A stretch of 54,587 bases of DNA from Planctomycetaceae bacterium (GTDB lineage Bacteria; Planctomycetota; Planctomycetia; Pirellulales; Thermoguttaceae), in contig JAITBS010000077.1 in the NCBI GenBank assembly GCA_031283515.1, forward strand, positions 1-54,587, written 5' to 3'. Every line of letters starts with the position of its first letter. Position 1 is the stretch's first letter. Shown piece after piece: positions 22 through 54,139 of this stretch. The notes under the pieces are model-generated. The model did no database searches. It was not told the origin of the DNA and saw only the letters and a program-made list of their open reading frames with translations. The position numbers were made by a program, and so were the translations under genes.

Positions 22-237
22 AGTTGATAGTGGAGAGTTCGCACGCGGATTCAAAACGTTTTGGTCGTAATCCGCTTGCGAACTATCCACTCTCCACTAT
101 CAACTCTCAACTATTCCATTGCCCTTTCAGGGCGTTGGGTTGAAGAGGAGTTTTTACCCACCCCGTTGGGGCGGGTTATAATCCTGACGCCCCTATCGGG
201 GCTAATGGGAAAAACAATAATTCCACTGATAGATTAC
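22..237. repeat. Composite intergenic repeat: heptamer-arm palindrome (22-117), short GC hairpin modules, then the terminal motif TTCCACTGATAGATTAC (221-237)
   Basis: AGTTGAT/AGTGGAG arm, core CGCACGCGGA...TCCGCTTGCG, complementary ACT-type arm. Hairpins GCCCTTTCAGGGC, CACCCCGTTGGGGCGGG and CCCCTATCGGGG. The reverse complement of the 115-237 part recurs at 41851-41970. Confidence 0.7.
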
Positions 238-6118: not shown

Positions 6119-6322
6119 GTAATCTATCAGTGGAATCTTTTTCTCCTACGCCCTGAACGTAGTTGATAGTTGAGAGTTGATAGTGGAGAGTGGATAGTTG
6201 AGAGTGAATAGTTATGAGTGAATAGTGAATAGTGTCGCAAACGTCCTAATTTACCAAAACGGTATTACTCCGCTTGCGCAACTATTCACTATTCACTATC
6301 AACTATTAACTATTCACTATCC
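6119..6322. repeat. Composite element: left terminal motif GTAATCTATCAGTGGAAT plus a heptamer-arm palindrome
   Basis: About 11 AGTNNNN heptamers, core GTCGCAAACGTCC...CTCCGCTTGCGCAAC, then a complementary NNNNACT heptamer arm. Confidence 0.75.
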
Positions 6323-8562: not shown

Positions 8563-8728
8563 GTAATCTATCAGTGGCATTTTTGTTTTTTTCGATTTTC
8601 ACCCCGACAGGGGCGTGGCAAGTTGATAGTTGAGAGTGGATAGTTGATAGTGTCGCAAGCGGAATTACTGCCGAAATGGTATTACTCCGCGTGCGAACTC
8701 TCCACTATCCAATCTCAACTATCAACTA
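8563..8728. repeat. Composite element: terminal motif GTAATCTATCAGTGGCAT, a CACCCCGACAGGGGCG hairpin and a heptamer-arm palindrome
   Basis: Arms at 8621-8652 and 8695-8728 around core TCGCAAGCGGA...CTCCGCGTGCGA. The last heptamer contains the rsgA stop codon. Confidence 0.75.
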
Positions 8729-9865: not shown

Positions 9866-10031
9866 CGTTCAGCTTGGTTTTGGTAATTCTTAATTTTAAC
9901 AAATGCCCCTTTTATAACCAACTCTCGATCCATAAACTCTGCCCAGCCTCAAATTATCACCCACAAAAATCAGTATAACCAATGTCAGAAAAAAATCAAT
10001 CGCCAGTTTTTGAATAGATAGTTTAGGTAGT

Positions 10032-10192
10032 TGATAGTGGATAGTTGATAGTGGATAATTGAGAGTTAATAGTGAATAGTGTCGCAAGCGGAGTAATACC
10101 ATTGCGGCAATAATCCGCTTGCGAAACTACTAACTATTCACTACTAACTATTCACTACTAACTATTCACTACTAACTATTCACTACTAACTA
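10032..10192. repeat. Heptamer-arm palindrome; the right arm is a 14-bp tandem (ACTACTAACTATTC x ~4.8)
   Basis: Core TCGCAAGCGGAGTAATACC...AATCCGCTTGCGA. The right arm abuts the ATG at 10193. Confidence 0.75.
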
Positions 10193-17312: not shown

Positions 17313-17527
17313 TAATATATTAGTGGAATTATTATTTTTTATTCTTCACCCCAAGCAACTGTGTTTTTGTCAAATGGAAGTGAATAGTTGCGCAAGCGGA
17401 GTAATACCGTTTTGGTAAATTAGGACGCTTGCGACACTATTCACTATTCACTATTCACTCATAACTATTCACTAATACGCTCCTATCGGGGCTAATGGGA
17501 AAAACAAAAATTTCACTGATATATTAC
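17313..17527. mobile_element. MITE-like composite with degenerate termini enclosing a heptamer-arm palindrome
   Basis: TAATATATTAGTGGAAT ... TTTCACTGATATATTAC. The core GTTGCGCAAGCGGAGTAATACCGTTTTGGTAAATTAGGACGCTTGCGAC is the reverse complement of the 6232-6281 core. Confidence 0.7.
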
Positions 17528-22590: not shown

Positions 22591-22763
22591 ATAATAATTC
22601 AGTGAAATTTTTGTTTTTCGATTTTCACCCCGAAGGGTTCGATTTTCACCCCGAAGGGGCGGCATTTTCATAACCGCAGGTCAAGCGAAGCGCGACCTAC
22701 GGTCAATGTCTTTTCCTCAACATCGCCTGAAAGGCGAAACGGAACAATCCCATGATATATTAC
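22591..22763. mobile_element. MITE-like hairpin-module element with degenerate termini
   Basis: ATAATAATTCAGTGAAAT ... TCCCATGATATATTAC. Tandem TTCGATTTTCACCCCGAAGGG x2, plus AGGTC..GACCT and CGCCTGAAAGGCG hairpins. Confidence 0.5.
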
Positions 22764-25323: not shown

Positions 25324-26355
25324 GTGTTTTTTATGGTTGTGTTTTTCAAATTACCGGTACAATGTGAACTTGCTCATCCTCACGATTTACTTGCACGGCG
25401 TTTTCTTCTTGATAAAGAGTTGATGGCGAGTTTGTTGAAACATTACGATAATACAGGTGTTGTTCGATTACTTGATCTTCAAGCATTACGGTGTGAATCT
25501 CCAACCACAATAGACAGCCAATTACAGGAAGTCATTGGCGATTTGCGCTTTTCCACAAAATTCAAAAACGGTGCTTATTCGAAAGTGTTCCTGTTTTTTG
25601 AACATCAATCAAAAAAAATTAAATTATATTCGCTTCACTGTTTACGTAAAATATTGGAATTTTACGAAGAATGGGCGGACAACCCTCAAAACGCTATCAC
25701 CGAAAATGGTAAATTTCCGTATCCGCTTGTTGTGGTACTTTATCACGGAGATATTTCATGGAGTGAAGTGTTGCAAATAAAAGATTTAATTGCCGTACCA
25801 CAAGGTGTGGATAGTAACGTGTTATGGTTCCAGATTATTGTAATTGATTTGTCAAAAATTCAACGCGAAAAATTACAAGGACATCCGGCACTCATTGCTC
25901 TTTTTGATACATTACAATCGTATTCGGAAGGAAAATTACCGGAAAGTCTGGAGCGAATCGTCGGATACTTCAACGAAGTTAAAACAGACCCACGAACAAT
26001 AGGTTGGCTAACTTCCATCGCCCATTACGTGTTGGCAGCCGCTAAAATCAGTAAAGATGTTATTGTTCGTGAATTTTCAAAAATTATAGATAAAAAAGGA
26101 GCTGAAAAAATGATTATGTCAACGATGGAAGAATTGTACACAAATGGAAAAATTGAAGGAAGGACTGAAGGCGAAGTTGAAATTTCAATTAAGAATATTC
26201 TTAAATTACTCAACAAACGCTTCAAACGAGTTCCAAAATCTATTTCGAGTGCTGTTAATTCTTATACGGATATTGTGGAGTTGGATTCCCTTTTTGATCG
26301 GGCGTTGGAATGTAAAACGTTGACAGAATTTGAACGAGACCTTGCGCACCGTTGA
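25324..26355 (+). CDS. Rpn-family recombination-promoting nuclease / putative transposase (PD-(D/E)XK, YhgA-like)
   Basis: N-terminal HPHDLLARRFL, DLRF....G....FLFFEHQSK, and a helical C-terminal module. The start (GTG 25324 or ATG 25333) is uncertain. Confidence 0.85.
   Translation: MFFMVVFFKLPVQCELAHPHDLLARRFLLDKELMASLLKHYDNTGVVRLLDLQALRCESPTTIDSQLQEVIGDLRFSTKFKNGAYSKVFLFFEHQSKKIKLYSLHCLRKILEFYEEWADNPQNAITENGKFPYPLVVVLYHGDISWSEVLQIKDLIAVPQGVDSNVLWFQIIVIDLSKIQREKLQGHPALIALFDTLQSYSEGKLPESLERIVGYFNEVKTDPRTIGWLTSIAHYVLAAAKISKDVIVREFSKIIDKKGAEKMIMSTMEELYTNGKIEGRTEGEVEISIKNILKLLNKRFKRVPKSISSAVNSYTDIVELDSLFDRALECKTLTEFERDLAHR
26110..26355 (+). CDS. Possible intragenic RpnS-like small ORF (same frame as the Rpn gene)
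   Basis: In-frame ATG preceded by AAGGAGCTGAAAAA. The same translation-initiation region heads the two downstream cassettes. Confidence 0.4.
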   Translation: MIMSTMEELYTNGKIEGRTEGEVEISIKNILKLLNKRFKRVPKSISSAVNSYTDIVELDSLFDRALECKTLTEFERDLAHR

Positions 26356-26424
26356 AATCATTGTGATATTTCCTGCTGGAAAGTTCAGAACGAATTGTCG
26401 AATACTTTGCAAGGAGCTGAAAAA

Positions 26425-26730
26425 ATGATTATGTCAACGATGGAAGAATTGTACACGAATGGAAAAATTGAAGGCTGGACTGAAGGAAGAATTGAAGGAA
26501 AAATCGAAGGAAGAATCGAAGGAAGAATTGAAGGAAGAATTGAAGGCGAAGTTGAAATTTCAATTAAGAATATTCTTAAATTACTCAACAAACGCTTCAA
26601 ACGAGTTCCAAAATCTATTTCGAGTGCTGTTAATTCTTATACGGATATTGTGGTGTTGGATTCCCTTTTTGATCGGGCGTTGGAATGTAAAACGTTGACA
26701 GAATTTGAACGAGACCTTGCGCATCGTTGA
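26425..26730 (+). CDS. Free-standing copy of the Rpn C-terminal module (RpnS-like), 7 tetrapeptide repeats
   Basis: Near-identical to 26110-26355 except for a 60-bp repeat expansion. Has its own AAGGAG-N8-ATG. Confidence 0.6.
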   Translation: MIMSTMEELYTNGKIEGWTEGRIEGKIEGRIEGRIEGRIEGEVEISIKNILKLLNKRFKRVPKSISSAVNSYTDIVVLDSLFDRALECKTLTEFERDLAHR

Positions 26731-26799
26731 AATCATTGTGATATTTCCTGCTGGAAAGTTCAGAACGAATTGTCGAATACTTTGCAAGGAGCTGAAAAA

Positions 26800-27033
26800 A
26801 TGATTATGTCAACGATGGAAGAATTGTACACGAATGGAAGAATTGAAGGCGAAGTTGAAATTTCAATTAAGAATATTCTTAAATTACTCAACAAACGCTT
26901 CAAACGAGTTCCAGAATCGATTTCGAGTGCTGTTAATTCTTATACGGATATTGTGGAGTTGGATTCCCTTTTTGATCGGGCGTTGGAATGTAAAACATTG
27001 GCGGAATTTGAAGAAGGCCTTGTGTATTTTTAA
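26800..27033 (+). CDS. Second free-standing copy of the Rpn C-terminal module, 1 tetrapeptide repeat and a diverged C-terminus
   Basis: Same SD/ATG context. The last ~12 codons differ (LAEFEEGLVYF). Confidence 0.6.
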   Translation: MIMSTMEELYTNGRIEGEVEISIKNILKLLNKRFKRVPESISSAVNSYTDIVELDSLFDRALECKTLAEFEEGLVYF

Positions 27034-28416: not shown

Positions 28417-28760
28417 GGAATTGGTAATATTTTGCGGAGTTTTCGTAAATTTGTTTGCGACAGGAACTCAAGAGGTAGGCGACATTTCTCTGAAAAGCCG
28501 CAACAATTGTTCTGTAATTTACGACAGGTTTTGTATTTTCAATTGCCGCCGGAGAGCGGTTTCCAATCCCAATGCACCGAATAGCACAGATATGAAGGAA
28601 CGGCTATTTTCCTACTAGTTTTTGGCGGCAAAGAGTTGGTGATTATGCTGTTGAGGTGTTATTATTTTGAGTGCTGTTTAACAAAGTTGAATACAAAAAA
28701 TCTGCGTAATCTGCGGACTAAAAATCTACAAAATACCTCCACTCTCTGCGATACGGCAAT

Positions 28761-29654
28761 TCAAGGATTTGTGATTTCCGTACCAACACCCATACTAGTA
28801 AAAATTTCGAGCAAAAGAGAATGCCGTAAACGTCCATTGATAATATGAATTTTTTGTACACCGCGTTCCAGAGTTTCGAGACAGGCTTGAATTTTCGGAA
28901 TCATACCGCCAACAATTGCCCCTGAAGCAAGCATTTCCCGTGCTTTTTCTGCGGTGATCGAATCAATCATTGAATTGGGATCATTGGGGTCGGTTCGGAC
29001 GCCATTCACCTCACTAACATAAACAAGTTTTTCAGCGTGCAACTCTTTTGCTATTGCGGTTGCTGCGGTATCGGCGTTTATATTGAGAGTTTGACCGCTG
29101 TTGTCGTCCATCACGGCAATTGACGGAATCACCGGAACAATCCAATGATCACATAAATGCTTAATCGGTTCCGCATCAACACGTGTTACCGTACCAACCA
29201 ATCCCATATCAATTAATGTACCGGTTTCGTCCTTGAGTAACAACTTTTCCCCATAAAGAACATTGGTTCCGAAACAAACACTGAGAGATTGTGCTTGACC
29301 TTCAAACGTTTTGATTTTTGCAACGAGATGTTCATTGATTTCTTTACCGAGAACACGTTTGACGATTTCCAGAGAGTCTTCATCAGTGTAACGCCGTCCT
29401 TGTACAAAACGCGGTTCCAAGCCTGCACGATTCATTGCTTTGCTAATAGCTGCACCGCCGCCGTGAACCAGTACCGGTTTCATACCAACCGATTCCATAA
29501 AAACAATGTCCAGCAATAAATGCATCATTGCGGATTCGTCTTCCATAAGACTGCCGCCGATTTTAATAACACTGATCTTACCCCGATGTTGACGAATCCA
29601 TTTCATGGCTTCAATCAACACATCCGCTTTTTCCATCGCTTTGTCCATCATCAT
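28761..29654 (-). CDS. argB: Acetylglutamate kinase
   Basis: VIKIGGS, VLVHGGG, RFVQGRRYTD, NINADTAA. Confidence 0.95.
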   Translation of the reverse strand: MMMDKAMEKADVLIEAMKWIRQHRGKISVIKIGGSLMEDESAMMHLLLDIVFMESVGMKPVLVHGGGAAISKAMNRAGLEPRFVQGRRYTDEDSLEIVKRVLGKEINEHLVAKIKTFEGQAQSLSVCFGTNVLYGEKLLLKDETGTLIDMGLVGTVTRVDAEPIKHLCDHWIVPVIPSIAVMDDNSGQTLNINADTAATAIAKELHAEKLVYVSEVNGVRTDPNDPNSMIDSITAEKAREMLASGAIVGGMIPKIQACLETLERGVQKIHIINGRLRHSLLLEIFTSMGVGTEITNP

Positions 29655-29960
29655 GGGAGGTGAAAGAGTAAGAGGTGAACTACAAAAAAGAGGACAATAC
29701 CGTAACTCGTACAGTATAACACATCACACTGAATACAACAGATTTTTGTTATTCGGACGACATTATTTTGATTGTTTTATTTGTTGATGCTCAAAATAGG
29801 AAACTGCCCCAAACAGAGTAAAAAAGTGAAAGCGTGAAAAAGCGTTCCACAAAACACCTTTTTACTCTTTCACTTTTCGATTCTCCCATGAAAAACTTTT
29901 TAATTGGTTTCGCCGATTTTATTGGTAACGTAAACGTAATGAACAATCGGCAATGTAAAC

Positions 29961-30236
29961 TTAATCTGCGACATAGGGGAGCAATGCCATAAATCTTGCT
30001 CGTTTGATTGCGGCGGCGACGGCATGTTGGCTGACGGCGGAACATCCGGTTTTACGGCGGCTAATAATTTTTCCTTGTCGGCTCGTCAATTTTTTGAGCA
30101 GTTCTATGTCTTTGTAATCAATGAACATGGGATGCGGACGTTGACCATTGACGATCAATGGATCTTTCTTTTTACCGCGAACTTTTGCTTTTGCTCGTTT
30201 ACGTTGTTTGAATTTTGATTTTTTGAATCTTGCCAT
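29961..30236 (-). CDS. rpsR: 30S ribosomal protein S18
   Basis: Start at the internal ATG (MARFKKSKF...). [23 protein letters not shown]. .AIKRAR..ALLPY. Confidence 0.9.
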
Positions 30237-30497
30237 TGTATGAATTTTCCTTGTTTTATCTGTGTTAAGTTTACAAAAATAGAAAACAAAATATTGGGGA
30301 AGTGTTGTTTCCACATAACATTTCCAAAACATTCCCGAATATTTGAAGTAGTTTACCGTTTTTTTTTATTTCTTCAAGGTGAGGTCTTCGCAAAATTTAG
30401 ATTTTTTAGTTTATTCGGATTGTTTAGTTGTGTATTTTGAGTTTATCCGGCGGCGAGTATTGCAAACAGTCCGCCGGTTCCACAAGATCAGACAATT

Positions 30498-30667
30498 GAT
30501 CTTATTTGTTCCTATTTAATGGTAGTCAACCTTCCGCCGAAAGGTTGGTCGGCGAATGATCTTATTTGTTCCTATTTGATAGTAGTCAACCTTTCGGCGA
30601 ATGATCTTATTTGTTCCTATTTGATGGTAGTCAACCTTTCGCCGAAAGGTTGGTCGGCGAAAGCCGA
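30498..30667. repeat. Three tandem copies (60/45/65 bp) of GATCTTATTTGTTCCTATTTGATGGTAGTCAACCTTTCGCCGAAAGGTTGGTCGGCGAA
   Basis: Copies start at 30498, 30558 and 30603. Each contains a CAACCTTTCG..CGAAAGGTTG hairpin, truncated in copy 2. Confidence 0.8.
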
Positions 30668-30687
30668 CTTGTCCCAGTTTACAGCCG

Positions 30688-31380
30688 GTAAAAACCAGTT
30701 GACAATTGGTAAAAACCGGTTGACAATTGACAAAAACCAGTTGGCAATTGGTAAAAACCAGTTGGCAATTGACAAAAACCAGTTGACAATTGACAAAAGC
30801 CAGTTGGCAATTGTTAAAAACCAGTTGACAATTGGTAATAACCAGTTGACAATTGACAAAAACCAGTTGGCAATTGTCTAAAACCAGTTGACAATTGTCT
30901 AAAACCAGTTGACAATTAGTAAAAACCAGTTGACAATTGTCTAAAACCAGTTGGCAATTGTCTAAAACCAGTTGACAATTGTCTAAAACCAGTTGACAAT
31001 TGTCTAAAACCAGTTGACAATTGACAAAAACCAGTTGACAATTAGTAAAAACCAGTTGACAATTGGTAATAACCAGTTGACAATTGACAAAAACCAGTTG
31101 ACAATTGACAAAAACCAGTTGGCAATTGTCTAAAACCAGTTGGCAATTGGTAAAAACCAGTTGGCAATTACCAAAAACCAGTTGGCAATTACCAAAAACC
31201 AGTTGGCAATTGGTAAAAACCGGTTGGCAGAGAACCCAAACCAGTCGGTAGAGAACTAAAACCAGTCAGCAGAGAACCAAAACCAGTCGGTAGAGAACTA
31301 AAACCAGTCAGCAGAGAACTAAAACCAGTCGGCAGAGAACCAAAACCAGTTGGCAGAAGACAAAAATCAGTTGGTAAACA
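30688..31380. repeat. Tandem array of 33 x 21 bp (consensus GTAAAAACCAGTTGACAATTG), strictly in phase with no indels
   Basis: Units were counted by hand. Units 1-25 are the CAATTG type, with linker variants GTA/ACA/TCT/CCA and TTGACA/TTGGCA. Units 26-33 are a diverged ...CAGTCGGYAGAGA type. Confidence 0.95.
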
Positions 31381-31398
31381 GCAAAAAAACAGTCCGCA

Positions 31399-31550
31399 GA
31401 TGACGCAGATATTCGCTGATTGTTTTTCTGCGTTAATCAGCGAAAATCTGCGGACTAAGATGACGCAGATATTCGCTGATTGTTTTTCTGCGTTAATCAG
31501 CGAAAATCGGCGGACTTAGATGACGCGGATTAACGCCGATGATTTTTCCG
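31399..31550. repeat. 60-bp hairpin repeat x2.5 of the TCCGCAGAT family; the last partial copy overlaps the cinA 3' end
   Basis: GATGACGCAGATATTCGCTGATTGTTTTTCTGCGTTAATCAGCGAAAATCTGCGGACTAA at 31399 and 31459. A diverged copy starts at 31519. Confidence 0.85.
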
Positions 31551-32768
31551 CAATAAATTCATGGCTCGTTTGACGTACAGATCATCGATAATATTGGGAT
31601 GTCCGACATAAGGATACTTTTGTAAGGCGAGAACAGATTCTTGTAAATCGGTTTTTTGTGCGTCCACAACAGCGACAAAAGTTTCCTCCATTCGGTTTCG
31701 GTCAGGCTGTCCCGACGGATAGGCACCGATCAAAAGTAAGTAATCAACATTGAAAAGCCGCCGTCCGCGTCGAATCATTTCATCCGGTTCAATGGGTTGT
31801 TTCGGCGGCAGGACAATCCCTCCAGCAAAACAATCCGGTGATTCTTTGGAACCAGCAATCGCTTCCGCCAATAATCCTCGCGTTCCGGCTTCGATAACCG
31901 CAAGCGTTTTACCATACGTGTTCAATTTCCGGCACACAACTTCTTGTAACCGATCATCGCCTTCACCAAAAATCAAATCACCAAGCGTTTTGTAAATTAG
32001 AGTTGCTGTTGGTTCTATTTTTTTGAGACATTCTTCTTCCGTAACTGCTTCGGCAACGATTCGCAGTGTGATTGTTGCTTGATTGGCAGTAATTCCGACT
32101 TTGGGATCATGATTCCGATTGATAATATCCGGCAACATTGTTTCAATCTGACTTTCGCCCAAACCGAAAGAATGAATCGTCCGAAATCGTAATACCCGTT
32201 TTTGTCCGGTTAATCGGTCAAGCATTTCTTGAATAGACATTTGACCGCTATCGAACCACATCTCTTTCATTTCCGCCGGAACACCCGGATAAGCGATGAT
32301 ACGGAAAAAATCAAGCCGTCCATTTTGGGAAGTGTTTTTGCGTTGCACGGTAAAATCAATTCCCGGTGCGGTTCCGTGTGGGTTACGAATGGGCATTGCT
32401 CCATGCGGCTGGAATGCCTGAATTTCATTCGCTTGGGGCATTTTCTGACCGCGCCGTTGGAATATCTCTTGAATAAACCGCATCGACTCCTCATTTTTCT
32501 CCAACGGCACACCAACACTTTCGGCAATCGCTTGCCGTGCCAAATCATCCGCTGTCGGTCCAAGACCGCCTGTCCAAAGAATTAAATCAGCTCGTTCCGC
32601 AGCCGCGCGAAGAACTCCAATCATCGCCGACAAATCATCACCAACTGTTGTATGGTACAACGTTGTAATACCAATTTCCGCCAATTTAATACTCAACCAT
32701 TGTGAATTTGTGTCAAGAATTTTCCCGCTGGTCAGTTCGTCGCCATTCGAAATAATCTCTGCCTGCAT
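31530..32768 (-). CDS. cinA: CinA-family competence/damage-inducible protein (MoCF-type domain plus nicotinamide-nucleotide amidase domain)
   Basis: MQAEIISNGDELTSGKILDTNSQWLS...TGGLGPTADDL. Confidence 0.9.
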   Translation of the reverse strand: MQAEIISNGDELTSGKILDTNSQWLSIKLAEIGITTLYHTTVGDDLSAMIGVLRAAAERADLILWTGGLGPTADDLARQAIAESVGVPLEKNEESMRFIQEIFQRRGQKMPQANEIQAFQPHGAMPIRNPHGTAPGIDFTVQRKNTSQNGRLDFFRIIAYPGVPAEMKEMWFDSGQMSIQEMLDRLTGQKRVLRFRTIHSFGLGESQIETMLPDIINRNHDPKVGITANQATITLRIVAEAVTEEECLKKIEPTATLIYKTLGDLIFGEGDDRLQEVVCRKLNTYGKTLAVIEAGTRGLLAEAIAGSKESPDCFAGGIVLPPKQPIEPDEMIRRGRRLFNVDYLLLIGAYPSGQPDRNRMEETFVAVVDAQKTDLQESVLALQKYPYVGHPNIIDDLYVKRAMNLLRKNHRR

Positions 32769-32817
32769 AATAATAGTGAATAGTTAGTAGTGAATAGTGA
32801 ATAGTGAATAGTTAGGA
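32769..32817. repeat. Single heptamer arm (AGTGAAT/AGTTAGT units) abutting the cinA start codon
   Basis: TAATAGTGAATAGTTAGTAGTGAATAGTGAATAGTGAATAGTTAGG. No core or partner arm is present. Confidence 0.7.
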
Positions 32818-32838: not shown

Positions 32839-33087
32839 TTATTTTTTGATTTGATTGAGTAGTTCCAATTTCCGTACAGTGGTGATGCCGGCGTTGTGTT
32901 TCTCTTCTTTTAACGCTACAACAATTTTGGACAAACTTTTGCTCGTCCAGAGAAGTGGAGTCATCGGGTCACCGCGACCAATCGATTTCGCTTCCGCTGC
33001 TGCCCAAACTCGTTTAGAACGTTCATCAAAAAATGCCTGAATGCTCTTGTACTTTTCGGAAATTGTTATTATCAGCATATTGTCCAT
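32839..33087 (-). pseudogene. Probable remnant of an ISAzo13-like (Rhodopirellula-type DDE) transposase N-terminus
   Basis: The 82-aa ORF (FFDERSKRVWAAAEAKSIGRGDPMTPLLWTSKS...) resembles, from memory, the N-terminal region of that transposase family with an internal deletion. There is no DDE domain. Confidence 0.4.
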
Positions 33088-36442: not shown

Positions 36443-36498
36443 TATTGTTTATTGTTTATTGTTTATTGTTTATTGTTTATTGTTTATTGTTTATTGTT
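36443..36498. repeat. Heptanucleotide microsatellite (TATTGTT)x8
   Basis: Eight perfect units counted by hand. Confidence 0.95.
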
Positions 36499-36592
36499 TA
36501 AAACGTTTCGGCGAAACGTTGGCTGCCTTTGGAGTCCATTGGTAAACAAATTGACGAATATTCCACTGATAGATTACAATTAATGAATCACT

Positions 36593-37027: not shown

Positions 37028-37033
37028 TTTTTT

Positions 37034-37172
37034 AGTTGATAGTTGAGAGTGGATAGTTAGTAGTGAATAGTTAGTAGTTAGTAGTGAATAGTGTACAGTA
37101 AACCGCTTGCGAACTCTCCACTATCCACTCTCAACTATCCACTATCCACTATCCACTCTCAACTATCAACTA
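37034..37172. repeat. Heptamer-arm palindrome between flgI and the rod-binding gene
   Basis: About 9 AGT-type heptamers, core ...GTACAGTAAACCGCTTGCGAAC, and about 9 ACT-type heptamers. The flgI TAG stop is in the last unit. Confidence 0.8.
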
Positions 37173-38336
37173 CTCAATATAATGTACGTCGCCAAGTAAG
37201 GCTCCTTGTTGTTCGAGAATTTTAATGATCTCAATCATGTCTTGCGGCGTAACACGAACCGCATCAAGTGATGCCTGTAACGCCTTCAATTTCTGATTTG
37301 TTACCGCTTCACCCATCATTTGCCGATATTTTATATCCGTATCAATATCAACAAATTGTTGCGGATTGACTTCCTGTTCGCCCGGCGGAACAGGCGGACG
37401 AATTTCTGCCACAATATTTTTATGTGTTACAACCGTCGGCTTCACCTCCACTCCTTCGTCAATCGAAATAATCCCAACCCGCTCATTAATAACCACTCGC
37501 GGCATCAACGGCTCAACAACCGTAATCTCAACATTCATCAGTTCAGAAACAAATCGTAACGGATGATCGAAATATTGTTTGGGAAGTTTGACAATAACAA
37601 AATGGGCATCAATTGCTTTGGCAATTGTTCCTCCATACCGTTGGTTTGCAGTAGTGGCGGCGGAAGTTTCCGGTTCGTTATCACCCCAGAATTGATTGAT
37701 GGCGTTGGCAACATAAATAGCCATACGCGGATCGGAAAATTCCCGTTTAATCACAAGTGTTAAATTTCCGTCTTCAACATACGGGTTGATGAAATTATCG
37801 GTGAGTCGGCAACCGCGTTTAATTTTACCGACATTGGGCGCACTGGTTTTCTCTATTGTAACTTTTCCCCACGCCGTACCCAACACTTCGGCTTCCTGTC
37901 CCCGCGGTAACAACGAAGTCAACATTGTTGCGGAAAGAACTCCGTTTTCAATACTTTTGGCATTGCCCACCGAAACCAACGTACAATCCAATAAATCTCC
38001 GTCACGTCCGCCGGTTGACGGAATCGTTGCGGTAACTTCGACTAAAGCGTTATTTTTTGAAACGCCAATACCTTTGGGAGAAGTATTAGGCATTCCGGAA
38101 AGTTCAAACATCCGCATAATTGTTCGGGCGGTTTGGTCGTAGGCTTTGGGGTCATCGCCGGTACCGTTGAGACCGCTGACAATTCCGTAACCGCGAATTG
38201 TTGTTGGTTCCTGTCCTTTGAGCCGCGTTACATTTTCAATCCGAAGCGGCGCCGCCAATAAACGGACGGTAAATAAGGAACAGAATATTGTGAATACAAA
38301 AATCCACAATAACCCCAATAATTTCTTGTTTCGCAT
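37170..38336 (-). CDS. flgI: Flagellar P-ring protein FlgI
   Basis: Signal peptide, RGYGIVSGLNGTGD and a typical C-terminal region. Confidence 0.95.
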   Translation of the reverse strand: MRNKKLLGLLWIFVFTIFCSLFTVRLLAAPLRIENVTRLKGQEPTTIRGYGIVSGLNGTGDDPKAYDQTARTIMRMFELSGMPNTSPKGIGVSKNNALVEVTATIPSTGGRDGDLLDCTLVSVGNAKSIENGVLSATMLTSLLPRGQEAEVLGTAWGKVTIEKTSAPNVGKIKRGCRLTDNFINPYVEDGNLTLVIKREFSDPRMAIYVANAINQFWGDNEPETSAATTANQRYGGTIAKAIDAHFVIVKLPKQYFDHPLRFVSELMNVEITVVEPLMPRVVINERVGIISIDEGVEVKPTVVTHKNIVAEIRPPVPPGEQEVNPQQFVDIDTDIKYRQMMGEAVTNQKLKALQASLDAVRVTPQDMIEIIKILEQQGALLGDVHYIE

Positions 38337-38343
38337 AATACAA

Positions 38344-38486
38344 GTTAGTGAATAGTGAATAGTTAGTAGTGAATAGTGGATAGTTAATAGTGAATAGTTA
38401 ATAGTGTTACAAGTAGAATCTTTATTATTACGATTGTAATCCGCTTGCGCAACTCTCCACTCTCCACTATCAACTCTCCACTACTA
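38344..38486. repeat. Heptamer-arm palindrome between flgH and flgI
   Basis: About 10 AGT-type heptamers, a loop with ...GTAATCCGCTTGCGCAAC, and 5 ACT-type heptamers. The flgH TAG stop is in the last unit. Confidence 0.8.
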
Positions 38487-40678: not shown

Positions 40679-40726
40679 CCACACTCTCCGCTCTCAACTC
40701 TCAACTCTCCGCTATCAACTATTATT
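40679..40726. repeat. Single ACT-type heptamer arm next to the flgG stop
   Basis: CCACACTCTCCGCTCTCAACTCTCAACTCTCCGCTATCAACTATTATT. Confidence 0.65.
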
Positions 40727-41850: not shown

Positions 41851-42147
41851 GTAATCTATCAGCGGCATTATTATTTTTCCCATTAGCCCCGATAGGGGCG
41901 TCAGGATTATAGCCCGCCCCAACGGGGTGGGTTTAAGTTCTTCTCCAACCTAACGCCCTGAAAGGGCAGTGGTTAGTTAATAGTTGATAGTGAATAGTTA
42001 ATAGTTGCGCAAGCGGAGTACTACCGTTTGGGTAAATAGGACGCTTGCGGCACTATTCACTATTCACTCATAACTATTCACTAATATCCAGCCCTTTCAG
42101 GGCGAATACCTTTTTAACCTCAAACAAAAATTCCACTGATATATTAC
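41851..42147. mobile_element. MITE-like composite: terminal motifs, GC hairpin modules and a heptamer-arm palindrome
   Basis: GTAATCTATCAGCGGCAT ... ATTCCACTGATATATTAC. The 41851-41970 part is the reverse complement of 115-237. Confidence 0.75.

Positions 42148-53272: not shown

Positions 53273-54139
<867 letters not shown>

What the first reader, a model, noticed from the sequence alone, without database searches (positions are those of the whole stretch)
30688..31380. Strictly phased array of 33 x 21-bp units with an A-tract, a near-palindrome and CAATTG: candidate protein-binding or curved-DNA locus
Thirty-three consecutive units are exactly 21 bp each, with no indel over 693 bp. The consensus is GTAAAAACCAGTTGACAATTG.

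Variation is confined to a few positions:
- the 3-nt linker (GTA, ACA, TCT, CCA or TTA)
- one A/G position (TTGACA or TTGGCA)
- the last 8 units, which shift to a related ACYAAAACCAGTCRGYAGAGA type

Structural features:
- Each unit has an A4-5 tract, and 21 bp is two helical turns, so the A-tracts are in phase. Phased A-tracts are known to give intrinsic curvature.
- GTA-linker units form the 17-bp near-palindrome ACCAGTTG-A-CAATTGGT, typical of a dimeric HTH operator.

The period is a multiple of 3, but the TCT-type variants put stops in the open frames of both strands, so it is not coding.

The array sits between cinA and rpsR, flanked by other tandem repeats. I do not know a described element like this. 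Candidate roles are a centromere-like or partition site, a nucleoid-protein or regulator sink, or a structural DNA element.
Basis: partly seen in the sequence, partly recalled or inferred. Interest (0 to 1): 0.8.

Follow-up and report, generated by a model that had tools for sequence, protein, structure and literature searches.

The report
Lineage-specific 21-bp non-coding minisatellite
A real, perfectly phased run of 33 copies of a 21-base unit sits between two housekeeping genes of a termite-gut planctomycete, and it is most likely young satellite DNA in a very repeat-rich genome, not a dedicated protein-binding site.

Summary
Window 30688-31380 holds 33 head-to-tail 21-bp units with no indel, between rpsR and cinA, flanked by a 45/60-bp repeat and a 60-bp hairpin repeat.

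- No related array turned up. Metagenome, viral-contig, plasmid and phage searches had no related hit, the genome-contig scan was uninformative, and translated-array searches of two protein collections found no relative.
- Relatives with 83-89% identical CinA or 86-93% identical S18 have other neighbours and no such array.
- The window shows no par or rep genes, no DnaA boxes, no GC-skew switch and no solitary copies of the motif.
- The 17-bp near-palindrome occurs in only 6 of 33 units.
- The predicted curvature is coherent, but 34% of shuffled-unit arrays are as curved.
It has no ATG, GTG or TTG, and no true homologue.

The window carries at least 16 heptamer arrays and a dispersed 21-24-bp motif. 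The units nearest cinA match the adjoining A-run plus motif head at 16 of 21 positions (P=0.002), which suggests the array was seeded there.

Best reading: a lineage-specific non-coding minisatellite made by slippage or unequal recombination. Bending and 22 sigma70-like hexamer pairs are probably by-products. Function remains untested.

The parts
30688..31212 (.). Units 1-25 of the array (type 1): 4-nt variable linker plus the 17-bp core AAAACCAGTTG[A/G]CAATT
   Evidence: TRF gives period 21 and 0% indels.
31213..31380 (.). Units 26-33 (one hybrid unit, then type 2 ACYAAAACCAGTCRGYAGAGA). They degenerate towards the cinA side, and units 27-30 alternate with a 42-bp period.
31381..31404 (.). 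Degenerate 34th unit and presumed seed: an A7 run plus the head of the dispersed motif (CAGTCCGCAGATGAC). Positions 31384-31404 match the type-2 consensus at 16 of 21.
   Evidence: P=0.0024 against shuffles, and 11 of 15 against the dispersed-motif consensus (P=0.01).
31398..31530 (.). 60-bp hairpin repeat, 2.2 copies. Each copy carries the dispersed motif TAGTCCGCAGAT[GT]ACGCAGAT, which has 8 copies in the window.
31383..31409 (-). Terminator-like hairpin followed by T7 on the cinA strand, immediately before the array in the direction of cinA transcription.
   Evidence: plus the sequence.
30498..30660 (.). Local 45/60-bp repeat, 3 copies, with CAACCTTTCGCCGAAAGGTTG and GTCGGCGAAAGCCGAC hairpins. 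It lies between the array and the rpsR upstream region.
30516..31265 (-). 250-codon open frame through units 1-27 and the 45-bp repeats (NCQLVF[TVDGN] heptads). It has no ATG, GTG or TTG and is judged not to be a gene.
30699..31105 (+). Ten TTGACA-17-GACAAT pairs (10 of 12 matches), among 22 sigma70-like pairs in the scanned region 29900-31700, generated by the 21-bp period. They point towards the 3' end of cinA (antisense).
   Evidence: 22 found against 3.9 +/- 1.9 in shuffles.
29961..30236 (-). rpsR (ribosomal protein S18). The array lies 450-1150 bp upstream of it.
   Evidence: PF01084.
31530..32768 (-). cinA-family gene. The array lies 150 bp downstream of its stop codon.

Best explanation
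The array is a lineage-specific, non-coding minisatellite in the chromosome of an uncultured termite-gut Planctomycetaceae bacterium whose intergenic DNA is unusually rich in tandem and dispersed repeats.

Proposed origin (inferred):
1. A 21-bp segment was duplicated in tandem. It spans the A-run that follows the cinA terminator-like hairpin and the head of a dispersed REP-like motif (AAAAAA-CAGTCCGCAGATGAC).
2. The array expanded by replication slippage and unequal recombination or gene conversion. Hairpin pairing between neighbouring units in single-stranded DNA would favour this.
3. Units diverged away from the seed: type 2, then a hybrid unit, then type 1.

On this reading the A-tract and the CAATTG or near-palindrome features are inherited or incidental. 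They were not selected.

Physical consequences follow automatically from a 21-bp period, which equals two helical turns. The array has a coherent intrinsic bend of about 22 degrees per unit in the wedge model. It also carries a dense series of TTGACA-N17-GACAAT hexamer pairs. These may have side effects on local transcription or nucleoid binding, but no dedicated function is indicated.

Shown: the structure, uniqueness, non-conservation, repeat-rich context and similarity to the flank. Inferred: the slippage mechanism, the seeding event and neutrality.
For: - The array is real and strictly phased.
- No related array was found:
  - JGI metagenomes: 0 hits for a two-unit pattern.
  - A looser three-unit pattern: 149 hits, all unrelated 21-bp repeats.
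  - Plasmids and phages: no match.
  - Predicted proteins: no translation of a like array.
- Relatives lack it.
  - Where sequence extends beyond cinA in relatives with 83-87% identical CinA, the neighbours differ and the downstream spacer is about 180-190 bp. Contigs of closer relatives end next to cinA.
  - rpsR-argB is conserved in relatives, with 170-770 bp upstream regions and no array.
- The genome is satellite-prone.
  - The 54.6-kb window has at least 16 heptamer arrays, 91 units of [TG]AGT[GT][AG]A.
  - It has 8 copies of a dispersed motif, plus local 45-bp and 60-bp repeats.
  - Surveyed bacteria have a median of 0-3 satellites per Mb (PMC6749651).
- Relative L118 has a different 13 x 21-bp non-coding array near its cinA, and an 18-bp x 6 array.
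- Type-2 units match the adjoining 21 bp at 16 of 21 positions (P=0.0024) and the dispersed-motif consensus at 11 of 15 (P=0.01).
- Local duplication signatures are present: identical units 14-16, the 42-bp alternation in units 27-30, and all linker x A/G combinations.
- Single strands fold far better than shuffles, with z = -7.5 and -4.3.
- There are no par, rep or regulator genes, no DnaA boxes and no GC-skew switch.
Against: - Variation is not uniform along the unit.
  - 6 of 10 state changes in units 1-25 fall in the 4-nt linker (P=0.005 uncorrected, about 0.1 after correcting for 21 possible blocks).
  - The 9-bp block AAAACCAGT is invariant between type 1 and type 2 (P=0.016 corrected). 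This could reflect constraint on a binding core.
- There are zero indels across 693 bp despite an indel-prone A-run in every unit.
- A second 21-bp A-tract array sits near cinA in a relative (L118). This hints at a recurring, possibly selected, architecture.
- Neutrality cannot be shown from one genome.
- Only 54.6 kb of this genome was available, so other copies elsewhere in it cannot be excluded.
Confidence: 0.58

Rival explanations
1. The array is a protein-binding platform. On this view it is iteron-like, centromere-like, or a sink for a regulator or nucleoid protein. A sequence-specific protein would bind the 17-bp core on one face of the helix every two turns, with the 4-nt linker free to vary.
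For: - The pattern of conserved core and variable linker is present.
- The 21-bp spacing equals 2.00-2.01 helical turns.
- Every type-1 unit has a CAATTG palindrome or near-palindrome.
- A 9-bp block is invariant in both unit types.
- Relative L118 has a similarly built array with a CACGTG-centred near-palindrome.
Against: - There is no par, rep or HTH gene next to it.
- There are no DnaA boxes and no skew switch.
- No solitary sites occur elsewhere in the window.
- The 17-bp near-palindrome is in only 6 of 33 units.
- The commonest polymorphism (A/G, 15:10 in units 1-25) sits at the centre of the proposed operator.
- Type-2 units lack CAATTG altogether.
- No related array was found in relatives or in the metagenome, viral, plasmid and phage collections searched.
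- The core-versus-linker statistic is weak after correction.
Confidence: 0.2
2. The array is a promoter array or a transcribed repeat RNA. The period creates TTGACA-17-GACAAT pairs that recruit sigma70-type RNA polymerase. This would either make a repeat-containing transcript antisense to cinA or titrate polymerase near rpsR.
For: - The scanned region (29900-31700) has 22 promoter-like hexamer pairs against 3.9 +/- 1.9 in shuffles, ten of them at 10 of 12 matches with the optimal 17-bp spacer.
- An A-tract lies just upstream of each -35-like hexamer.
- The plus-strand RNA is predicted to be highly structured, z = -7.5.
Against: - The match follows arithmetically from TTGACAAT recurring every 21 bp.
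- 10 of 25 type-1 units carry TTGGCA.
- The -10-like hexamer is GACAAT, which lacks T1 and T3.
- Rfam shows no family at gathering score and only sub-threshold hits.
- There is no downstream gene in that orientation, since cinA is convergent.
- Promoter rules for this planctomycete are unknown, and no expression data are available.
Confidence: 0.08
3. The array is a coding heptad repeat. The minus-strand frame, open for 250 codons, would encode or recently encoded a protein with NCQLVF[T/V/D/G/N] repeats.
For: - The frame is open from 31265 to 30516, with only 2 stops in the whole array.
- The periods 21, 45 and 60 are all multiples of 3.
- The two commonest polymorphisms are synonymous third-position changes in this frame (derived).
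Against: - There is no ATG, GTG or TTG anywhere in the 250 codons.
- Four of six frames of the consensus unit are open anyway.
- Overall there are about 2 synonymous and about 10 non-synonymous changes (my own tally of the variants listed), which looks neutral.
- The word-indexed protein search found no homologue, and no predicted protein of the window covering the array was returned.
- The 1189 hits of the exhaustive search are generic heptad proteins or spurious ORFs on heptanucleotide satellites. None of the best 150 hits examined contains NCQLV or QLVFT.
Confidence: 0.03
4. The copy number or unit order is an assembly artefact. The locus is repetitive, but the 33-unit structure is mis-assembled.
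For: - Short-read contigs of the same organism cannot bridge 30534-31509.
- No independent copy of the array sequence was found.
Against: - 22 distinct unit sequences occur in a non-periodic order, which is not what a collapse or expansion artefact produces.
- The array grades smoothly into its flank.
- Both flanks are reproduced to within one mismatch by an independent assembly.
Confidence: 0.07

Closest known systems
Non-coding prokaryotic satellites and minisatellites (VNTR loci; surveyed by Subirana and Messeguer 2019, PMC6749651)
   Same: Both are head-to-tail intergenic repeats with 10-30-nt units. Both are usually unique to one species and thought to arise locally by replication errors. 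Some genomes, such as Methanosarcina, Burkholderia and Chloroflexus with its (GATAGRA)n heptamer family, are very rich in them.
   Different: 33 copies over 693 bp with no indel is long for a bacterial non-coding satellite with a short unit. The repeat density of this window (about 20 arrays in 54.6 kb) is well above the highest listed there (89 per Mb). Copy-number polymorphism, which defines a VNTR, could not be tested.
Plasmid and secondary-chromosome iterons (Rep-binding direct repeats of 17-22 bp spaced about 22 bp apart; from general knowledge)
   Same: Both have a unit length and spacing close to two helical turns, a conserved core with variable spacer, and direct orientation.
   Different: There is no rep gene, no AT-rich unwinding element, no DnaA boxes and no skew switch. 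There are 33 copies where iterons number about 3-10. The context is chromosomal housekeeping genes.
Centromere-like repeat arrays of type II and type III partition systems (for example R1 parC 11-bp iterons, pSK41 parC 20-bp repeats, tubC 12-bp repeats; from general knowledge)
   Same: Both are tandem direct repeats that, in those systems, are wrapped by an adaptor protein into a curved or superhelical complex.
   Different: Those arrays lie directly beside parMR or tubZR operons. No such genes are in the window. The only P-loop NifH/ParA-like hit is a bona fide NifH (PF00142, E=3e-126).
Intrinsically curved DNA with phased A-tracts (kinetoplast-type bends, curved DNA upstream of promoters; from general knowledge)
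   Same: An A4-5 tract recurs in phase with the helix. The wedge model gives 10.9 degrees per turn and an end-to-end/contour ratio of 0.13. Disrupting the A-tracts drops this to 4.5 degrees per turn.
   Different: There is only one A-tract per two turns, about a third of the bend of a classical A6 array in the same model (28.7 degrees per turn). 34% of shuffled-unit arrays are as curved. The array lies 450-1150 bp from the nearest start codon, which is too far for a classical upstream curved element.
REP/BIME-type dispersed extragenic palindromes and cyanobacterial STRR heptanucleotide repeats (from general knowledge; REP review PMC3733652 listed but not read)
   Same: The flanks of the array and many other spacers in the window carry dispersed short motifs and heptamer tandem arrays. 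The array appears to have grown out of the edge of one such motif.
   Different: The 21-bp unit itself is not dispersed and occurs only at this locus in the window. It is not significantly derived from the heptamer family (P=0.06-0.3).

Membership tests
Non-coding minisatellite / VNTR | Head-to-tail tandem copies of a 10-100-bp unit | tested here: met
   33 x 21 bp with 0% indels.
Non-coding minisatellite / VNTR | Lies outside protein-coding sequence | tested here: met
   It lies between the rpsR and cinA ORFs. The one open frame lacks any ATG, GTG or TTG and has no true homologue.
Non-coding minisatellite / VNTR | Copy number varies between strains | not testable with these tools
   Only one assembly contains the array. 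Short-read contigs of the same organism break at the flanks.
Non-coding minisatellite / VNTR | Species- or lineage-specific, absent at the orthologous place in relatives | tested here: met
   Relatives with 83-89% identical CinA and 86-93% identical S18 have no such array. The metagenome scan had 0 hits.
Iterons of a replication origin | Adjacent gene for a Rep initiator | tested here: not met
   Pfam scan of 30 selected ORFs of the window, mostly of at least 150 aa, found none.
Iterons of a replication origin | Origin features: DnaA boxes, an AT-rich unwinding element, a GC-skew switch | tested here: not met
   No TTATCCACA with up to 1 mismatch in 30237-31529. No skew inflection. The array is 37% GC against 41% for the window.
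Centromere-like partition site (parC, parS, tubC) | Next to a partition NTPase and adaptor operon | tested here: not met
   No ParA, ParM, TubZ, ParB or ParR family was found. The CbiA/ParA hits belong to NifH at 53315-54139.
Centromere-like partition site (parC, parS, tubC) | Bound by a cognate adaptor protein | not testable with these tools
   This needs a binding assay.
Dimeric HTH operator | Inverted-repeat half-sites conserved in the sites | tested here: not met
   The 15-bp core of the near-palindrome (CCAGTTGRCAATTGG) occurs in 6 of 33 units. Its central base is the A/G polymorphism. Type-2 units lack CAATTG.
Dimeric HTH operator | Further single sites at regulated promoters | tested here: inconclusive
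   None beyond chance in the 54.6-kb window: 3 hits at 3 mismatches against 3.4 expected. The rest of the genome is not available.
Intrinsically curved A-tract DNA | A-tracts of at least 4 bases phased with the helical repeat | tested here: met
   30 of 33 units have a run of at least 4 A (units 8, 19 and 27 are the exceptions). Model twist per unit is 2.00-2.01 turns.
Intrinsically curved A-tract DNA | Curvature beyond that of matched controls | tested here: inconclusive
   It is the most coherently bent segment of the window, but 34% of shuffled-unit tandem arrays reach the same value. The wedge parameters were recalled from the literature, and no gel data exist.
Sigma70-type promoter | -35 and -10 hexamers with a 16-18-bp spacer | tested here: met
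   22 pairs in the scanned region 29900-31700, against 3.9 expected. This is a consensus match only.
Sigma70-type promoter | Transcription start in vivo | not testable with these tools
   No expression data are available.
CRISPR array | Repeats separated by unique spacers of similar length | tested here: not met
   Units abut one another, and only 3-4 nt vary between cores.
Known RNA family (Rfam) | Match at the gathering score | tested here: not met
   No hits at gathering score. The best sub-threshold hit is 25 bits against a 76-bit cut-off.

The most novel reading that the evidence does not exclude
Termite-gut Planctomycetaceae may carry a class of strictly phased 21-bp arrays with one A-tract and one (near-)palindrome per unit. 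This window holds 33 units and relative L118 holds 13 units, both next to cinA. Such arrays would serve as architectural or protein-loading sites. A nucleoid-associated or sequence-specific protein would coat one helical face every two turns and wrap the DNA into a superhelical body. The sequence of each array would co-evolve with its binder.
Probability: 0.12. Interest if true: 0.7.

Novelty: new member of a known kind. Interest (0 to 1): 0.3.

Why it matters
If the array is only a satellite, it is one of the longer, cleaner non-coding minisatellites seen in a bacterial chromosome. Together with the heptamer arrays, it marks this uncultured planctomycete lineage as exceptionally satellite-prone. 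Two practical points follow:
- These repeats fragment short-read assemblies. CinA-bearing contigs of close relatives are 1.3-10 kb.
- The repeats spawn spurious ORFs in protein databases.

It also gives a traceable example of a minisatellite born from the edge of a REP-like, terminator-like element.

If the array turned out to bind a protein, it would be a new kind of chromosomal repeat platform in a phylum whose nucleoid biology is poorly known.

Tried and rejected
2. The looser pattern AAACCAGT-N13 x3 gave 149 loci in metagenome and viral contigs. All were unrelated 21-bp repeats, mostly coding heptads, eukaryotic or giant-virus DNA.
   - L211 looks eukaryotic.
   - L175 is a bacterial 14 x 21-bp intergenic array. 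Its 13-of-21 similarity to the units here has nominal P=0.015-0.04 against shuffles, and is not meaningful because the locus was selected for sharing the 8-mer.
3. Coding was rejected. There is no start codon, and the exhaustive search found only generic heptad proteins or spurious ORFs on heptamer satellites.
4. Derivation of the 21-mer from the window's heptamer family ([TG]AGT[GT][AG]A x3) was not significant, with P=0.06-0.3.
5. Homology between this array and the L118 array was not established: 13 of 21, P=0.02, no collinearity beyond GRCAATT.
6. An origin or terminus of replication was rejected.
7. No Rfam family was found.
8. Plasmid or phage origin was rejected: no blastn match.
9. A special, optimised curvature was rejected, because shuffled-unit arrays do as well.
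10. The core-versus-linker constraint test was suggestive before correction for post-hoc choice of block and weak after it.
Full report
**1. The observation**

Window 30688-31380 contains 33 consecutive 21-bp units in perfect register.
- TRF gives period 21, 25.6 copies, 88% matches and 0% indels for 30690-31226. It gives 33.2 copies for 30690-31387.
- The 18-mer core with up to 3 mismatches occurs 25 times, only here, against 0.11 expected by chance.
- Units 1-25 (type 1) are a variable linker plus AAAACCAGTTG[A/G]CAATT[G/A]. Unit 26 is a hybrid. Units 27-33 (type 2) are ACYAAAACCAGTCRGYAGAGA and degenerate towards 31380.
- There are 22 distinct unit sequences.
- The array lies in a 1.29-kb spacer. 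On the minus strand the order is:
  - cinA (31530-32768);
  - a 60-bp hairpin repeat, 2.2 copies, ending in a terminator-like hairpin plus T7;
  - the array;
  - a local 45/60-bp repeat, 3 copies;
  - the rpsR upstream region and rpsR (29961-30236).

Two independent short-read contigs of the same organism (Logan SRR14710909) equal window 31510-32800 and 28703-30533, with one mismatch each. Both stop inside the flanking repeats. The flanks are therefore confirmed. The copy number is not.

**2.

- The 17-bp near-palindrome needs a GT linker after CAATTG, and is found in only 6 of 33 units.
- One minus-strand frame is not closed by the TCT variants. It is open for 250 codons (31265 to 30516), encoding NCQLVF[T/V/D/G/N] heptads.
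- It is nevertheless not a credible gene, for these reasons:
  - It has no ATG, GTG or TTG.
  - Four of six frames of the consensus unit are open anyway.
  - The substitution pattern is about 2 synonymous to 10 non-synonymous, by my own tally of the variants listed.
  - A word-indexed search of 5.8 billion proteins found nothing.
  - The 1189 hits of the exhaustive search are generic heptad proteins or spurious ORFs on heptanucleotide satellites. For example NCQLSTV is the translation of (AACTGTC)n. None of the best 150 hits examined contains NCQLV or QLVFT.

**3. Organism and context**

- CinA and S18 homologues at 83-93% identity are annotated as MAGs of Planctomycetaceae. Several come from termite-gut metagenomes.
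- The window is ordinary chromosome. Its genes include secDF, aroA, larC, argB, rpsR, cinA, a Ser/Thr kinase, flagellar ring and rod genes, a DUF1559 protein and nifH.
- It has no partition, replication-initiator or obvious DNA-binding regulator gene.
- There is no GC-skew switch, and the spacer has no DnaA box.

**4. Is it conserved or found elsewhere?**

- An exact two-unit pattern has 0 hits in JGI metagenomes.
- A looser pattern (AAACCAGT at 21-bp spacing, three times) hit 149 loci. None has the TTGRCAATT core. They are unrelated 21-bp repeats, mostly coding.
- There is no blastn match in plasmids or phages.
- Where sequence extends beyond cinA in relatives, its neighbours differ and the downstream spacer is short. 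Other relative contigs end within about 140 bp of cinA.
- rpsR-argB is conserved in relatives, but the gene upstream differs and there is no array.
- The motif has no solitary copies elsewhere in the window.

**5. The genome is exceptionally repeat-rich**

- The window has at least 16 arrays of the heptamer [TG]AGT[GT][AG]A, 91 units in all. Most are arranged as inverted pairs around a conserved palindromic core, TCGCAAGCGGAGTAATACC...GGTATTACTCCGCTTGCGA.
- It has 8 copies of the dispersed motif TAGTCCGCAGAT[GT]ACGCAGAT in intergenic spacers.
- Further local repeats are present as well.
- Surveyed bacteria have a median of 0-3 satellites per Mb, and the richest archaeon has 89 per Mb (PMC6749651).
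- Relatives show the same tendency.
  - L118 (CinA 87% identical) has its own 13 x 21-bp non-coding array, AAAAG[A/G][C/T]AATTCACACGTGCG, 400 bp upstream of cinA. It also has heptamers and an 18-bp x 6 array downstream.
  - L277 has a 21/42-bp in-frame insert in a FabH-like gene.
- The L118 array is not significantly homologous to this one: 13 of 21, P=0.02, with no collinearity beyond GRCAATT.

**6. Origin**

- The type-2 consensus matches the 21 bp that adjoin the array (31384-31404, AAAAAACAGTCCGCAGATGAC) at 16 of 21 positions. That gives P=0.0024 against composition-preserving shuffles over all rotations and offsets.
- It matches the consensus of the other copies of the dispersed motif at 11 of 15 positions, P=0.01.
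- Among type-1 units, the ACA-linker, G-variant units are also 16 of 21 to this seed.
- I infer that the array began as a tandem duplication of the A-run plus motif head just downstream of the cinA terminator-like hairpin, and diverged with distance.
- Several features fit slippage and unequal exchange:
  - identical units 14-16;
  - the 42-bp alternation in units 27-30;
  - free reassortment of linker type with the A/G site.
- Single strands of the array fold much better than shuffles, with z = -7.5 on the plus strand and -4.3 on the minus strand, through pairing of neighbouring units. This also favours slippage.

**7. Physical properties**

I used Bolshoy-Trifonov wedge parameters recalled from the literature.
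- One unit spans 2.00-2.01 helical turns.
- The array has the lowest end-to-end/contour ratio of any 693-bp segment in the window (0.13) and 10.9 degrees per turn, against a window mean of 7.2.
- Disrupting the A-tracts lowers this to 4.5 degrees per turn.
- However, 34% of tandem arrays built from shuffled units are as curved. A classical A6 array gives 28.7 degrees per turn. The bend is therefore real in the model but not evidently optimised.
- The period also places TTGACA 17 bp before GACAAT of the next unit. This contributes to the 22 sigma70-like pairs found in 29900-31700, against 3.9 expected. Most lie on the plus strand, pointing antisense into cinA. It is an arithmetical consequence of the repeat, and 10 of 25 type-1 units carry TTGGCA.

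**8. Is there constraint?**

- In units 1-25, 6 of 10 state changes fall in the 4-nt linker. P=0.005, or about 0.1 after allowing for the 21 possible blocks.
- All 9 differences between the type-1 and type-2 consensus lie outside AAAACCAGT. P=0.016 after the same correction.
- This is suggestive but weak. It is the main point in favour of a binding core.

**9. Verdict**

- The array is a genuine, previously undescribed, lineage-specific non-coding minisatellite in a satellite-prone planctomycete genome (confidence 0.58).
- A protein-binding or architectural role (0.20) and a promoter-array or RNA role (0.08) remain possible but lack positive evidence.
- Coding (0.03) and mis-assembly of copy number (0.07) are unlikely.
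- It is a new member of a known kind. Interest is modest unless binding or conservation is shown.

Noticed in passing
window 81-114, 6160-6320, 8621-8728, 10028-10192, 17385-17474, 32772-32812, 37033-37177, 38346-38482, 40683-40720, 41974-42086: There are at least 16 arrays of the heptamer [TG]AGT[GT][AG]A, 91 units in all. Most form inverted pairs flanking a conserved palindromic core (TCGCAAGCGGAGTAATACC...GGTATTACTCCGCTTGCGA). Each pair with its core makes a long composite hairpin element of roughly 130-165 bp in many intergenic spacers. The family may be an undescribed REP- or MITE-like element.
   Followed up: partly
window 24170, 28700, 31390, 35024, 36326, 39317, 52825, 52957 (each about 21-24 bp): The dispersed motif TAGTCCGCAGAT[GT]ACGCAGAT(TTT) has 8 copies, against 0 expected, all in intergenic spacers. 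The 60-bp hairpin repeat beside the array carries it.
   Followed up: partly
L118 83-356 and 2195-2302: A relative with CinA 87% identical has its own strictly phased 13 x 21-bp non-coding array, AAAAG[A/G][C/T]AATTCACACGTGCG, 400 bp upstream of cinA. It also has an 18-bp x 6 array and heptamers downstream.
   Followed up: partly
L277 2307-2509: A 21-bp (42-bp higher-order) repeat forms an in-frame SPNATSA-type insert inside a FabH-like (ACP_syn_III) gene of a relative. The gene caller split the gene there.
   Followed up: no
L175 1-294 and 1614-1688: An unrelated bacterial metagenome contig starts with a 14 x 21-bp intergenic array (CAAACCAGTTGGGAGACCGAA) upstream of a membrane-protein gene that looks TerC-like by eye, and ends in (GGCAAAC)n. 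The architecture is similar, with no meaningful sequence similarity.
   Followed up: partly
window 26146-26850 and 25324-26355: A 375-bp tandem duplication (1.9 copies, 98% identical) overlaps the 3' end of a YhgA-like transposase gene (PF04754) and a small DUF4351 ORF.
   Followed up: no
window 32839-33087: An 82-aa fragment of a Rhodopirellula-type DDE transposase (PF07592) lies just upstream of cinA. This fits the broken synteny around cinA.
   Followed up: no
window 53315-54139: A full-length NifH/frxC-family gene (PF00142, E=3e-126) lies in this putative termite-gut planctomycete contig.
   Followed up: no
window 36443-36500: A perfect (TATTGTT) x 8.3 heptamer array, of a different sequence family from the main heptamers, lies next to a copy of the dispersed motif.
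   Followed up: no
proteins P0148, P0173, P0179, P0240 (public protein collection): Short predicted proteins made of NCQLSTV or NCQLPTA heptads are translations of heptanucleotide satellites such as (AACTGTC)n and (AACTGCC)n. They are spurious ORFs in public databases.
   Followed up: partly
window 22617-22670, 8590-8620, 41900-41975: Short G+C-rich hairpins of the type CACCCCGAAGGGG or GCCCTGAAAGGGC recur beside the heptamer arrays.
   Followed up: no
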